A stretch of 64,000 nucleotides of DNA from Bacilli bacterium (GTDB lineage: Bacteria > Bacillota_I > Bacilli_A > RFN20 > CAG-826). The DNA is taken from positions 19,790-83,789 of the forward strand of contig JAKSHZ010000002.1 of the NCBI GenBank assembly GCA_024399115.1, written 5' to 3'. Below are positions 40,713 to 51,773 of the stretch, in pieces. Position 1 is the first letter of the stretch. Each line of letters starts with the position of its first letter. The notes below the pieces were generated by a model, which did no database searches, was not told the origin of the DNA, and was given only the letters and a program-made list of their open reading frames with translations. Both the position numbers and the translations under genes were made by a program.

Positions 40713-43427
40713 CTAGTAAATAATTGCGAAGCTTTTAGTTGTAATGTTATAAGAATCAACTCTTGTAAATTTAACTGTGTGAGCTCCAGCAGTTAGATTA
40801 ACTGTGCCGATTTCTGCATATCCTTCTTCAGAGTTACTGCCAGATCCAGAAAACATATCACCGAAAGTTTTAGATTTCATCGCTGAGAAATCAACAGCAT
40901 TGTTATCAAATTCTAATTTAAAGTTACCAACTGTATCAGCATGAGTTGATCCGATAGTTGAACTCTTGCCACTATAATAACCTAGACTTTGATTTGATGA
41001 CCAAGAGTCCATATAACCTAAGAAGTATACTTTTCCATTAACAGCTTCAGGTAAGTTAATGCTATAGCTGATTGAGTTGCCGTTAGATGCTAATTTTAAG
41101 TATCCAGCTTTGTTGTTATTTGTACTTCCATTAGCTAATGTTCCATCTGCTGCTAAGAAAGAAACTTTCTTTTTGCCACATGAACAAGTTGATGTATAAA
41201 GATCCACTTTTCCTGCAGTTTGAACTTTAGTCTCAGTAGACCAAACATGAGTTTTTTCTGTGTGAGTAGAAGATGAGTTTCCGCCTGTAGTTCCACCTGT
41301 ACTAGTTCCGCCTGTTGAAGATCCGCCAGTTGAGCTACCTCCAGTAGATGATCCTCCTGAAGAAGAATCACCATAACCTTCAATCATAACTGTACGAATC
41401 TTTTCAATTGTAGCTGCTGTAACACCTTTTGATTTTAAGAATGCTTCGCAGTTATCTTTGAATGATTTTGATGAACTATACCAACTTGATTTAACGAATG
41501 CGTTATAGAAGTTAGGGAATTGTGAATAGTATGGTGCTTCTGGATGATTGAAGAATCTACTTCTTGGATAGTTAGTAGCAGTAGTAACTTCGAAGTCGAT
41601 AATTGCGTCTGTGTAGCTAACACCTAATAAACCTAATAAGACAAATCCAACACAACCTGTTCTATCTGCACCACCGATACAGTGATAGTAAACTGGTTTT
41701 GTATCTGCTTCTGCGAATGCTTTGTAGATATTTTGAATTTCAGTATTACCTGCATTTAAGAAGTTTGTATAAGCACTTACCTTGTAACCGTCTCTTCTAT
41801 ATTCAACTGGGATTTCAGTTGTTGTAATAGGAGAAGCAGTTAAGTTTTGAGCTTCGCCTCCACTTCTATGGTCGATTTCGACCCTAATCTTTAAGATATC
41901 TTTTTGAAGTTGTAATACTTCAGCGTCGATGTTCTTTGGGTGTGAACCATTGCCATCGCTATATGCTTTAGGAGTTAATTCACTACCTCTATATACGAGA
42001 CCTTGTCTGACTCTTCCGCCATAGCTTGTCTTGTAATTACCCATATCACGTACGTTGTATACAAGACCCATATCAATAAATCTTGTGTAATCTGCTGTTT
42101 CGAATGTAGCGATATTAGATTTATATAATGTAGTACCTTTTGTGTAAGTTAATTGATAGTAATACCTAGTATTAGAAAGTAAATTATTAACTTTAACTGA
42201 TGTTCCAGAAGTTGAAACTTCTAATGCGTTAGACATATCAGCGTTTGAAGAATATTTAACGATAGCAGTTGTGTAATCCATTGTGCCTTTTTCCCAGCTA
42301 AGAGTTACTCCATCTGGTTTATTATGGCCTTGGCCAGCACTATCTTTGAATTCATCTTTTGATAAATAGTTTTCAACGTTAACACCATTGTTGAGTTCTT
42401 GCATCTTCATTGGATCTGCAAGATTCTTTTCAGCTGCTTTCATTGCGTCAATGTAAGCTTTTGTTTTAGGGTTAACTGTTGCTGCTTGTTTACCTGTTAA
42501 TTGATTAAAGCTGACTGAAATAGCTTCACTACCATCTGTGTTATCTACTAATGGAGCGATAGATTCAGTTTTTGTAGCGCTACAAACTGAACAAGTAAAT
42601 GTCTTAATACCTTCAGAAGAAGTTGTTGGTTGTTTTGTAACTTCACCAGCGTTCCAAGAGTGAGTAGCTTCATCCTTCTTATCAGGGCAAGCGTACATCT
42701 CTCTACCACCGTAACCAATTGTTTTACCAAAGTTACATTGATGCCAGTGAGATTGTTCGTTAGACACCCAAGTTGTGTCGTATGTATGAGCGTGTTCTGC
42801 TAAAGGAGCTTCTTCTCTATGAGTTGCTGTTTCCTTATAAGCGCAAACACTACAATCTCTATGTTTATTACCAATAGTAACAACTACATCATCTGCACCA
42901 GCAGCATCATGTTGTATAACTGCGTAGTTATCGATGACCCATTCACCAAATTGGTGAGCTTCTTCGTGATCTTTTCTATCGCATGGTTGACCATTAATAG
43001 TTAATGTACATTTGAGCCAGTGTTTAGTCTCATCCTTTTCATAAGTTGTTGAGAAGGAACATTCATGAAGGCTTTCTTCTGTGAAATTATGTTCTTCGCT
43101 TTGGACATAATCACATGTATCACATGTTCTATGTCTTCTACCTGGAGTAGTTTGACTCCAAAAGCCATTTCCTGTAGTAGTTGCGTAACTATCGTACTCC
43201 CATTCATCAAAATCATGGAATTCGCTAACTACTTCATCACAACCTTCGTCTGTACATGTTTTGAAGTGTCTAGTTTCATTAGATTGCCATGAACCATAAT
43301 GGTGAGTTGAAGGTGGGTTATCATCACCATCACCATCTACATGGTTGCCACCCTTATCATCAGAAGGGCCACAACCAGTAAGAGTTAATAAAGCAATGAT
43401 TGAGTATACTAATTTGTTCTTCTTCAT
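40713..43427 (-). CDS. Surface lipoprotein: His/Cys repeat modules, FN3-like region, PTP-fold phosphatase domain, G/S/T linker, C-terminal beta domain
   Basis: 904 aa. Lipobox LTGCG. Contains VYYHCIGGADRTGCVGFVLLGLLGVSYTDAIIDFEVTT. The linker is GGSSTGGSSTGGSSTGGTSTGG. Confidence 0.6.
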   Translation of the reverse strand: MKKNKLVYSIIALLTLTGCGPSDDKGGNHVDGDGDDNPPSTHHYGSWQSNETRHFKTCTDEGCDEVVSEFHDFDEWEYDSYATTTGNGFWSQTTPGRRHRTCDTCDYVQSEEHNFTEESLHECSFSTTYEKDETKHWLKCTLTINGQPCDRKDHEEAHQFGEWVIDNYAVIQHDAAGADDVVVTIGNKHRDCSVCAYKETATHREEAPLAEHAHTYDTTWVSNEQSHWHQCNFGKTIGYGGREMYACPDKKDEATHSWNAGEVTKQPTTSSEGIKTFTCSVCSATKTESIAPLVDNTDGSEAISVSFNQLTGKQAATVNPKTKAYIDAMKAAEKNLADPMKMQELNNGVNVENYLSKDEFKDSAGQGHNKPDGVTLSWEKGTMDYTTAIVKYSSNADMSNALEVSTSGTSVKVNNLLSNTRYYYQLTYTKGTTLYKSNIATFETADYTRFIDMGLVYNVRDMGNYKTSYGGRVRQGLVYRGSELTPKAYSDGNGSHPKNIDAEVLQLQKDILKIRVEIDHRSGGEAQNLTASPITTTEIPVEYRRDGYKVSAYTNFLNAGNTEIQNIYKAFAEADTKPVYYHCIGGADRTGCVGFVLLGLLGVSYTDAIIDFEVTTATNYPRSRFFNHPEAPYYSQFPNFYNAFVKSSWYSSSKSFKDNCEAFLKSKGVTAATIEKIRTVMIEGYGDSSSGGSSTGGSSTGGSSTGGTSTGGTTGGNSSSTHTEKTHVWSTETKVQTAGKVDLYTSTCSCGKKKVSFLAADGTLANGSTNNNKAGYLKLASNGNSISYSINLPEAVNGKVYFLGYMDSWSSNQSLGYYSGKSSTIGSTHADTVGNFKLEFDNNAVDFSAMKSKTFGDMFSGSGSNSEEGYAEIGTVNLTAGAHTVKFTRVDSYNITTKSFAIIY
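41281..41385. repeat. Low-complexity coding repeat (Gly/Ser/Thr linker), near-identical at DNA level to 45700-45800
   Basis: GATCC(G/A)CCAGTTGAGCTACCTCC(A/T)GT(A/T)GATGA is shared between the two paralogous genes. Confidence 0.5.

Positions 43428-51773: not shown

What the first reader, a model, noticed from the sequence alone, without database searches (positions are those of the whole stretch)
40713..51773. Repeated extracellular His/Cys knuckle module shared by all six lipoproteins
A module of 30-40 aa recurs 2-8 times per protein: H-(S/T)-(W/Y/F)-x5-8-(A/P)-T-C-x-x-x-G-x-K-x-x-x-C-x-x-C-x-x-x-(T/K)-T. Examples are HTWNSGEVTTAPGAYSEGVKTYKCTVCNKTKTESI, HTYGEDVVVKEATCTEKGSKKRTCTVCGYED and HSFGEATLVDGEKKVTCSTCGYTKD. 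Some copies add a second variant, HxW...HWxxC. One His plus three Cys per unit suggests a small zinc-ribbon-like fold repeated on the cell surface. I do not recognise it as a named domain. It may be an uncharacterised adhesive or metal-binding repeat specific to this lineage.
Basis: seen in the sequence. Interest (0 to 1): 0.6.

Follow-up and report, generated by a model that had tools for sequence, protein, structure and literature searches.

The report
Zinc-stapled stalk repeats in surface lipoproteins
The repeated His/Cys module is real and forms the membrane-proximal stalk of these lipoproteins, but it is not lineage-specific: it is the same still-unnamed, probably zinc-binding mini-domain recently predicted in a gut bacterial IgA protease, and it is very common in gut and rumen Firmicutes.

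Summary
Five lipoprotein genes inside the coordinates (B-F) carry 24 His/Cys units. A sixth gene (A, 37161-39173) lies outside them and has one degenerate copy. The quoted H..TC..CxxC motif fits only 8 units, in E and F. B, C and D use 2His+2Cys variants.

AlphaFold2 models are confident (pLDDT 87.7 and 84.5). Each unit is a three-stranded antiparallel sheet with the CxxC at the β2-β3 turn. No Pfam or NCBIfam family covers it, and no solved structure resembles it.

It is homologous to the predicted "ZBD1/ZBD2" domains of Thomasclavelia ramosa IgAse (E 1.4e-11; PMC12237041). It is also widespread: 36,821 50%-identity clusters match, with up to 81 matched stretches per protein.

The main new result is ligand bookkeeping. 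Each four-ligand site appears to be shared between neighbouring units.
- The loop Cys/His is present in 97.8% of units that are followed by another unit, but in 29.9% of terminal units.
- First units carry an extra Cys/His in 66% of cases, against 3.9% of internal units.

The best reading is a zinc-stapled spacer holding phosphatase and CBM35-like domains off the membrane. Metal binding is untested in any member of the family.

The parts
48541..49017 (-). Protein E (48094-49110), aa 32-190. Array of 4 type-1 units. Predicted sites: C32/H35/C58/C61; C48/H75/C97/C100; C87/H113/C140/C143; C130/H156/C180/C183.
   Evidence: AF2 pLDDT 87.7, three strands per unit. All 12 Cys of the array are accounted for in 4 sites. 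The last unit lacks the loop Cys.
51024..51680 (-). Protein F (49368-51773), aa 32-250. Array of 5 type-1 units (F1-F5), directly after the lipobox. F5 has a CxxxC knuckle and no loop Cys.
   Evidence: The 15 Cys and 5 His fill 5 four-ligand sites with none left over.
50214..50441 (-). Protein F, aa 445-520. Second array of 2 units. F6 starts with H445-x-H447 and has a CxC knuckle. F7 is terminal and has no loop Cys.
47608..47823 (-). Protein D (45286-47961), aa 47-118. A type-2 unit (H47xH49...H62W..C66...C71) followed by a unit with H80...H102..C105xxC108...H116.
   Evidence: Aligns to IgAse ZBD2 subdomains II+III. AF2 pLDDT 84.5.
47299..47556 (-). Protein D, aa 136-221. A type-2 unit (H136xH138...H151WH153xC155...C174) followed by a terminal type-1 unit (H183...C206xxC209).
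   Evidence: Aligns to IgAse ZBD1 subdomains II+III. HMM 2.2e-12 for D4.
42546..43304 (-). Protein B (40713-43427), aa 42-294. Six units alternating type 2 and type 1 (B1-B6).
   Evidence: B6 scores 1.1e-12.
41157..41264 (-). Protein B, aa 722-757. Solitary unit (H722, H727...C748xC750) between a Gly/Ser/Thr linker and the C-terminal β-sandwich.
   Evidence: Read from the sequence. It has the same position as E4, F5 and F7, immediately before a β-sandwich domain.
44933..45127 (-). Protein C (43445-45196), aa 24-88. A type-2 unit (H24xH26...H39WH41..C45xH47) followed by a terminal unit (H57...C73xxC76).
   Evidence: (E 2.2e-4).
38976..39062 (-). Protein A (37161-39173), aa 38-66. Single degenerate unit (C38xH40...C57xxC60) directly before a β-sandwich domain. 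It lies outside the finding's coordinates.
   Evidence: Not detected by the HMM. C-x-H is the commonest first-unit signature elsewhere.
48094..48540 (-). Protein E, aa 191-338. CBM35-like β-sandwich carried at the tip of the stalk.
   Evidence: Foldseek against PDB: CBM35 structures 2w1w (TMt 0.58), 2vzp and 2w46, probability 1.0.

Best explanation
The units are small, structurally metal-stabilised mini-domains of about 30-50 aa, and the metal is most probably zinc. Each unit is a three-stranded antiparallel sheet. The units are strung head to tail into a stiff rod directly after the lipid anchor.

Each junction holds one four-ligand site. It is made of the His that opens unit n+1, the CxxC knuckle of unit n+1 at the β2-β3 turn, and a fourth ligand donated by unit n. 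That donated ligand is the Cys of the β1-β2 loop in type-1 units, or the His four residues before the knuckle in type-2 units. A first or solitary unit supplies the fourth ligand itself, as C-x-H, C-x-x-H or H-x-H. A last unit drops the donor residue.

The metal therefore staples neighbouring units together. It does the job that disulfides do in EGF-like repeats, in anaerobes whose surroundings are reducing. The rod would be about 3.5 nm per unit, by analogy with the 110 Å quoted for three IgAse subdomains. It holds the functional domains (PTP-like phosphatases in A-D, CBM35-like β-sandwiches) away from the membrane.

What is shown: the repeat, its predicted fold, the homology to IgAse ZBDs, the distribution, and the ligand covariation. 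What is inferred: the metal, its identity, the site geometry and the spacer role.
For: 1. Fold. AF2 gives confident three-stranded units with the CxxC at the β2-β3 turn (pLDDT 87.7, and 88-97 across units 2-4; 84.5). In an up-and-down sheet the β1-β2 loop lies at the same end as the exit of β3. That places the loop Cys next to the following unit's His and knuckle.

2. Ledger. In E and F, all 32 array Cys plus 12 His fill 11 sites of exactly four ligands. F's first array has 15 Cys, an odd number, so they cannot all be in disulfides.

3. Covariation in about 3,000 units of 150 unrelated representatives:
- The donor ligand is present in 97.8% of followed units and 29.9% of terminal units (OR 106).
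- Per protein, terminal units have the lower frequency in 62 cases and the higher in 5. In the independent set the split is 24 to 0.
- An extra His/Cys sits beside the opening His in 66% of first units and 3.9% of internal units. It is mostly Cys at -2.
- When a followed unit lacks the donor Cys, the next unit has an extra ligand in 37.5% of cases, against 2.6% otherwise.
- Terminal units keep the flanking T, P/A and G and replace only the Cys.
- Type-2 units that are followed have His at -4 in 23 of 27 cases.

4. Homology to IgAse ZBD1/ZBD2 (E 1.4e-11). For these domains the authors report AF-predicted tetrahedral 2His+2Cys or 3Cys+1His sites at subdomain interfaces, no disulfides, and that the domains are dispensable for catalysis (PMC12237041).

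5. Position. Arrays start 10-25 residues after the lipobox Cys in B-F. In the 22 representatives with a C-terminal anchor-like segment, the last knuckle lies a median of 60 aa from it.
Against: - No coordinates were available to me, so no ligand distances were measured. The site geometry rests on topology and covariation.
- No member of the family has measured metal content or a solved structure. IgAse ZBDs are models only, and the paper reports no metal analysis of the ZBDs.
- Units were parsed by regular expression. Repeats within one protein are not independent, so the p-values are inflated, although the per-protein sign tests agree.
- About 30% of terminal units keep a donor residue, and 34% of first units show no extra ligand.
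- Conserved His pairs in B2, B4 and D2 (His at -3 and at +8 of the knuckle) do not fit the ledger.
- The IgAse paper assigns 3Cys+1His to its site 8, where my rule would predict 2His+2Cys.
- The spacer role is an inference from position and architecture alone.
Confidence: 0.62

Rival explanations
1. The units are primarily a binding or adhesive repeat: each one, or the array, recognises a host, plant-fibre or partner-protein ligand. Metal only holds the fold together.
For: The repeat occurs in cell-surface proteins with cohesin, dockerin, LPXTG, CAP, Ig-like and Flg_new domains. Giant proteins have dozens of matched stretches, up to 81, like fibrillar adhesins.
Against: Apart from the ligands, only Gly, Thr and Pro scaffold positions are conserved, and surface positions vary freely. 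In the window the arrays sit next to the anchor, with recognisable binding or catalytic domains distal to them. The IgAse ZBDs are dispensable for substrate cleavage and even hamper it in vitro (PMC12237041).
Confidence: 0.15
2. The Cys form disulfides (an EGF-like, metal-free Cys-rich repeat), and the His are incidental.
For: The location is extracellular. IgAse needed DTT to stay monodisperse, so the thiols are reactive (PMC12237041).
Against: Cys numbers are odd: 3 per type-1 unit and 15 in F's first array. His and Cys substitute for each other at the donor and first-unit positions. Units with only the two knuckle Cys plus two His are common, as in B, C, D and IgAse. No disulfides were seen or predicted in IgAse. 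The hosts are gut and rumen anaerobes.
Confidence: 0.05
3. The arrays work as a surface metal buffer or sensor. They would store or scavenge zinc, or change stiffness or extension with metal supply, rather than act as a passive spacer.
For: There is one site per about 40 aa, hence dozens of sites in large proteins. Sites shared between units would couple metal occupancy to rod rigidity.
Against: There is no linkage to metal-uptake or regulator genes in the window. The neighbours are GH3, GH43, an AraC regulator and phosphatases. Cys-rich tetrahedral sites are usually tight structural sites, which is general knowledge of zinc proteins rather than something tested here.
Confidence: 0.08
4. The units are rubredoxin-like iron or redox centres forming an extracellular electron-transfer wire.
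For: The knuckle resembles the rubredoxin knuckle (1rb9, E 5.9e-4 over 14 residues).
Against: The match covers the knuckle only. There is one knuckle per unit, and the ligand sets contain His. Centres about 35 Å apart are too far for electron hopping; this spacing is inferred from 110 Å per three subdomains in PMC12237041. No redox partners are encoded nearby.
Confidence: 0.02

Closest known systems
ZBD1 and ZBD2 of Thomasclavelia ramosa IgAse (igalysin M64 IgA protease; Ramirez-Larrota et al., PLoS Pathog 2025, PMC12237041; sequence in PDB 9qa6)
   Same: Direct sequence homology. D aa 138-221 aligns to ZBD1 subdomains II+III and D aa 46-113 to ZBD2 II+III, with E 1.4e-11. Both have about 35-45 aa three-stranded subdomains in tandem and four His/Cys ligands at subdomain interfaces. 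Both sit next to the membrane or wall anchor, and both are accessory to the enzyme.
   Different: IgAse has 3+2 subdomains at the C-terminus before a sortase signal. Here the arrays are N-terminal after a lipobox and have up to 6 units. E and F use uniform His+3Cys type-1 units that IgAse largely lacks. The IgAse domains themselves are only AlphaFold models; no metal content or structure has been determined for them.
Classical zinc ribbons and rubredoxin knuckles (e.g. TFIIS C-terminal domain, Pfam Zn_ribbon families)
   Same: A three-stranded antiparallel sheet with a CxxC zinc knuckle at a β-turn. The IgAse authors noted a distant resemblance of one subdomain to TFIIS. The knuckle matches rubredoxin weakly.
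   Different: Each unit has only one knuckle. The other ligands are a His before β1 and a residue from the neighbouring unit. No Pfam zinc-ribbon model reaches threshold. No PDB structure matches the array model at E<=1e-3. The location is extracellular.
EGF-like / calcium-binding EGF tandem modules of eukaryotic extracellular proteins
   Same: Small β-rich modules of about 40 aa in long tandem arrays that form rod-like extracellular spacers, with inter-module stabilisation. This is a functional analogy, also drawn in PMC12237041.
   Different: There is no homology. EGF modules are held by three disulfides and inter-module Ca2+, whereas these units have His/Cys (presumed Zn) sites shared between units.
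Stalk domains of bacterial fibrillar adhesins (Monzon et al., J Bacteriol 2022, PMC9210967; seen in the listing, not read)
   Same: Tandem repeats that project a functional tip domain from the cell surface, with very high copy numbers in giant proteins.
   Different: Known stalk domains are mostly Ig-like folds of 80-100 aa stabilised by a hydrophobic core or isopeptide bonds. This is my own knowledge and was not tested here. The units here are half that size and depend on His/Cys ligands.

Membership tests
IgAse-type ZBD module (PMC12237041) | Significant sequence similarity to IgAse ZBD1/ZBD2 | tested here: met
   D N-terminus against 9qa6_A, E 1.4e-11, with two collinear alignments covering ZBD1 II+III and ZBD2 II+III; a Clostridial array against 9qa6_A, E 1.2e-7; profile A2, E 1.5e-3.
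IgAse-type ZBD module (PMC12237041) | Subdomains of about 35-45 aa, each a three-stranded antiparallel up-and-down β-sheet, arranged in tandem | tested here: met
   AF2 plus DSSP. E units show strands 41-44/52-58/64-70, 77-83/91-97/103-108 and so on. D units are likewise three-stranded.
IgAse-type ZBD module (PMC12237041) | Four His/Cys ligands forming a site at each subdomain interface | tested here: inconclusive
   The sequence ledger and the covariation fit interface sites. No atomic coordinates were available to measure geometry.
IgAse-type ZBD module (PMC12237041) | Zinc actually bound | not testable with these tools
   This needs ICP-MS or a structure. It has not been shown for IgAse either.
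Classical zinc ribbon (Pfam Zn_ribbon clans) | Two zinc knuckles (CxxC...CxxC) within one domain | tested here: not met
   There is one CxxC (or CxC, CxxxC, Cx4C) per unit.
Classical zinc ribbon (Pfam Zn_ribbon clans) | A match to a curated profile or a solved zinc-ribbon structure | tested here: not met
   All Pfam zinc-finger and zinc-ribbon hits are below the gathering scores. The one exception is a summed zf-CHY (and zf-DNL) score in P0126, with no single stretch passing. Foldseek against PDB finds nothing at E<=1e-3.
Rubredoxin | Fe(Cys)4 centre made from two CxxCG knuckles in a roughly 50 aa domain | tested here: not met
   similarity is limited to 14 residues of one knuckle, and the ligand sets contain His.
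Bacterial lipoprotein | N-terminal signal peptide ending in a lipobox [LVI][ASTVI][GAS]C | tested here: met
   Read directly from the sequence: LTGC19, LTGC19, LTAC19, VSAC20, LAGC21, MAGC21.
Y_phosphatase3 (PF13350) tyrosine-phosphatase-like family, proteins A-D only | Profile match above the gathering score, and the HCxxGxxR(S/T) P-loop | tested here: met
   74.9-87.3 bits against a cut-off of 22.2. P-loops are HCWGGADRTG, HCIGGADRTG and HCRIGTDRTG (twice).
CBM35-like β-sandwich (C-terminal domain of E) | Structural similarity to solved CBM35 modules | tested here: inconclusive
   2vzp E 1.8e-3, 2w1w TMt 0.58 and rmsd 4.8 Å, probability 1.0. Sequence identity is 12-17%, there is no Pfam hit, and ligand-binding residues were not examined.

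The most novel reading that the evidence does not exclude
These arrays may belong to one of the largest still-unnamed extracellular domain families of anaerobic Firmicutes. In this reading it is a 'beads-on-a-string' rod in which each zinc ion is shared between two successive mini-domains. Metal occupancy would then set the stiffness and length of the stalk. This would be the anaerobe's counterpart of disulfide/Ca-stabilised EGF repeats, and possibly a zinc-responsive one.
Probability: 0.45. Interest if true: 0.65.

Novelty: new member of a known kind. Interest (0 to 1): 0.5.

Why it matters
If the zinc-staple model is right, tens of thousands of surface proteins of gut and rumen Firmicutes are built on a stalk whose integrity depends on one metal ion per roughly 40 residues. 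These include cellulosome components, IgA protease, phosphatases and giant adhesin-like proteins. The consequences would be:
- a new curated domain family, removing a large 'dark' region from annotation;
- a rule for reading array boundaries from sequence (extra ligand at the start, missing donor at the end);
- a concrete, cheap experimental target: a 160-residue stalk expected to bind four zinc ions;
- a possible link between zinc availability in the gut and the display of bacterial surface enzymes.

For this window in particular, it explains the Cys-rich N-termini of a cluster of lipoprotein phosphatases and CBM-like proteins as spacers rather than as functional sites.

Tried and rejected
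- Pfam and NCBIfam scans of the six proteins, of isolated arrays and of ten foreign array proteins found no family for the repeat. Only sub-threshold zinc-finger noise appeared, and a summed zf-CHY score with no passing stretch.
- Foldseek of the whole E model matched only through its CBM35-like domain.
- Foldseek of the array-only D model found nothing significant. RNA polymerase I RPA12 (7obb_I) appeared at E 1.4, which I rejected as evidence.
- The search for homologous proteins with D's N-terminus returned only 3 hits, so the alignment for the second model was shallow.
I replaced it with a tighter 8-sequence alignment.
- Two literature searches for a named Cys-rich or zinc repeat in Firmicutes surface proteins or cellulosomes found nothing relevant, and a third returned no papers. 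The only relevant paper came from the PDB sequence hit.
- The anchor-proximity test on the top 150 representatives was weak. Most lack a recognisable anchor, and only 22 had a C-terminal hydrophobic segment.
- I could not obtain model coordinates, so the planned measurement of ligand distances was replaced by topology and covariation.
- I considered assigning the His at -3 of the knuckle (B2, B4, D2) as donor ligands and left this open.
- I considered and rejected classical zinc ribbon, rubredoxin and disulfide repeat (see the membership tests and rival explanations).
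Full report
**What is in the region**

The finding's coordinates hold five minus-strand genes: B 40713-43427 (904 aa), C 43445-45196 (583 aa), D 45286-47961 (891 aa), E 48094-49110 (338 aa) and F 49368-51773 (801 aa). A sixth related gene, A 37161-39173 (670 aa), lies outside them, behind a DUF4143/AAA_14 ATPase gene.

All six proteins start with a signal peptide ending in a lipobox. A-D carry a Y_phosphatase3 domain at 75-87 bits with an intact HCxxGxxRTG loop. E and F have no Pfam domain. GenBank names A-D 'tyrosine-protein phosphatase' and E and F 'hypothetical protein', from a 'Bacilli bacterium' MAG.

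**Checking the observation**

CxxC knuckles preceded by H-x-[WYF] recur in every protein. An HMM built only from foreign sequences picks out F (7.6e-30), E (1.1e-25), D (3e-16), B (1.1e-12) and C (2.2e-4) among all 201 ORF segments of the window. Nothing else scores better than E 0.11. A is not detected.

By my parse there are 25 units: A 1, B 7, C 2, D 4, E 4 and F 7. The quoted consensus with the middle T-C fits 8 units, all in E and F. Across 12 window units only the opening His and the two knuckle Cys are invariant.

**Fold**

AlphaFold2 on E with 33 homologues gave pLDDT 87.7 and pTM 0.70. Each unit is a three-stranded antiparallel sheet, with the CxxC at the end of β2 and the β2-β3 turn, and the T-C in the β1-β2 loop. 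The C-terminal 150 residues form a β-sandwich.

Foldseek relates that β-sandwich to CBM35 modules such as 2w1w, 2vzp and 2w46. D's N-terminus, which has both unit types, gave pLDDT 84.5 with the same three-strand pattern and a disordered Gly/Asn linker between two two-unit blocks. The array-only model has no PDB neighbour at E<=1e-3.

**Is it a named domain?**

No Pfam-A or NCBIfam model covers the repeat, in the window proteins, in isolated arrays or in ten foreign array-rich proteins.

A sequence search of the PDB found one relative, chain 9qa6_A, the IgA protease IgAse of Thomasclavelia ramosa. D's N-terminus matches it at E 1.4e-11. D aa 138-221 aligns to ZBD1 subdomains II+III, and D aa 46-113 to ZBD2 II+III.

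The paper (PMC12237041) describes ZBD1 and ZBD2 only from AlphaFold models.
- The subdomains are three-stranded, and three of them span about 110 Å.
- Putative tetrahedral sites of 2His+2Cys or 3Cys+1His lie at subdomain interfaces.
- The domains are dispensable for catalysis.
- No metal analysis of these domains is reported.

The module is thus unnamed in the domain databases, but it is not undescribed.

**Distribution**

A profile of 12 window units was scored against 1.84 billion cluster representatives. It found 36,821 proteins at E<=1e-3, 16,419 at <=1e-10 and 2,940 at <=1e-30, with up to 81 matched stretches per protein. The weakest tier may include unrelated Cys-rich proteins.

Partner domains are those of surface proteins: cohesin, dockerin, SLH, LPXTG, CAP, Ig-like and Flg_new. 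A genome scan returned mostly gut and rumen Oscillospiraceae, Ruminococcus, Lachnospiraceae, Eubacteriales and 'Bacilli' MAGs, plus Anaeroplasmataceae. Cultured Oscillibacter valericigenes and Sellimonas catena also appear, with a few Hallerella, Treponemataceae and Coriobacteriaceae bins. 'Specific to this lineage' is refuted.

**How the ligands are used**

The sheet topology puts the β1-β2 loop at the end of the unit where β3 exits. The opening His and the knuckle sit at the other end. The loop Cys of unit n should therefore meet the His and knuckle of unit n+1.

The window obeys this exactly.
- In E, 12 Cys and 4 His make four sites.
- In F, 20 Cys and 8 His make seven sites.
- First units add C-x-x-H (E1, F1) or H-x-H (F6).
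- Last units (E4, F5, F7) lack the loop Cys.
- In B, C and D, first units start with H-x-H or HH. Type-2 units offer a His four residues before the knuckle. Terminal units (B6, C2, D4) have no donor. A has C-x-H.

I tested the rule on 150 foreign representatives, about 3,000 units.
- Donor residue: present in 2933/2998 followed units, against 38/127 units with no Cys in the next 55 residues.
- Within proteins: terminal units have the lower donor frequency in 62 cases and the higher in 5. In the independent homologue set the split is 24 to 0.
- Extra His/Cys next to the opening His: 95/144 first units against 117/2998 internal units. It is mainly Cys at -2 (43%) or His at -2 (9%).
- Compensation: when a followed unit lacks the loop Cys, the next unit carries an extra ligand in 37.5% of cases, against 2.6% otherwise.
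- Specificity: terminal units keep the flanking Thr, Pro/Ala and Gly at the same frequencies and replace only the Cys, with T, E, A or Y.
- Type 2: followed type-2 units have His at -4 in 23 of 27 cases.

Repeats within one protein are not independent and the parsing is by regular expression, so the p-values are overstated. The effect sizes and the per-protein counts are nevertheless large.

**Interpretation**

The best-supported reading is a metal-stapled rod, with zinc the presumed metal and one shared four-ligand site per junction. The rod serves as a spacer between the lipid anchor and the working domains. Arrays begin 10-25 residues after the lipobox Cys in B-F. Solitary units also sit immediately before β-sandwich domains (A, B7, E4, F5, F7).

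Disulfides are unlikely for three reasons: Cys counts are odd, His and Cys are interchangeable at the donor and first-unit positions, and the hosts are anaerobes. Adhesion, metal buffering and redox roles are not excluded but have little support.

Three things remain unexplained.
- Conserved His pairs at -3 and +8 of the knuckle in B2, B4 and D2.
- The 30% of terminal units that keep a donor residue.
- The 3Cys+1His assignment of IgAse site 8, where my rule would give 2His+2Cys.

**Verdict**

This is a real feature and a new member of a kind first described in 2025, and then only from models. Its sequence follows a ligand-sharing rule that can be tested directly.

Noticed in passing
window 37161-47961 (-), proteins A-D: Four paralogous lipoproteins carry a Y_phosphatase3 (PTP-like) domain with an intact HCxxGxxRTG loop, preceded by an fn3 / purple-acid-phosphatase-N-like domain. 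Four surface phosphatases side by side is unusual. The closest solved relative is only 8dhi (E 3e-6). Substrate is unknown.
   Followed up: partly
window 48094-48540 (-) (E aa 191-338); similar sequence at the B C-terminus (aa ~758-904) and in A (aa ~62-205): A CBM35-like β-sandwich (Foldseek 2w1w, 2vzp, 2w46) with no Pfam hit. In every case it is directly preceded by a terminal His/Cys unit whose third strand seems to run into the sandwich.
   Followed up: partly
B aa 99/113 and 189/203 (window ~43089-43131 and ~42819-42861); D aa 102/116 (window ~47614-47658): Conserved His pairs lie three residues before and eight residues after the knuckle in units B2, B4 and D2. They are not needed by the four-ligand ledger. 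They could be 'orphan half-sites' left from lost units, or weaker extra sites.
   Followed up: no
window 41265-41366 (-) and 45691-45786 (-); also 47839-47874 (-): Low-complexity Gly/Ser/Thr linkers, (GGSST)n, lie in B (aa 688-721) and D (aa 726-757), and an Asn/Gly run in D (aa 30-41). They are probably flexible and possibly glycosylated tethers between rigid parts.
   Followed up: no
window 39285-40610 (-): A DUF4143 / AAA_14 ATPase gene interrupts the lipoprotein cluster between A and B. A HipA_C kinase-like gene lies at 35295-36158 (+).
   Followed up: no
window 52067-61485: The neighbourhood is glycan-related: a 463-aa membrane protein without any Pfam hit (52067-53458), GH3 (53476-56451), an AraC-type regulator (58013-59065), GH43 (59090-60574) and a GDSL esterase with a Big_3 domain (60562-61485). 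This suggests the lipoprotein cluster belongs to a plant-fibre or glycan foraging region.
   Followed up: partly
foreign proteins P0184 (aa ~700-783) and P0214 (aa ~35-75 and ~165-205): A different small Cys/His module (for example CHIHVWKPIKVTKQVCNYEGCGAYFDTAEEVGTHILVAHDG) is attached to ends of arrays in some Clostridial proteins. It may be a capping domain.
   Followed up: no
foreign protein P0126: Long arrays of the repeat add up to above-threshold whole-protein scores for unrelated Pfam zinc-finger families (zf-CHY 53 bits, zf-DNL 43 bits), although no single stretch passes. This is a likely source of false automatic annotations.
   Followed up: no
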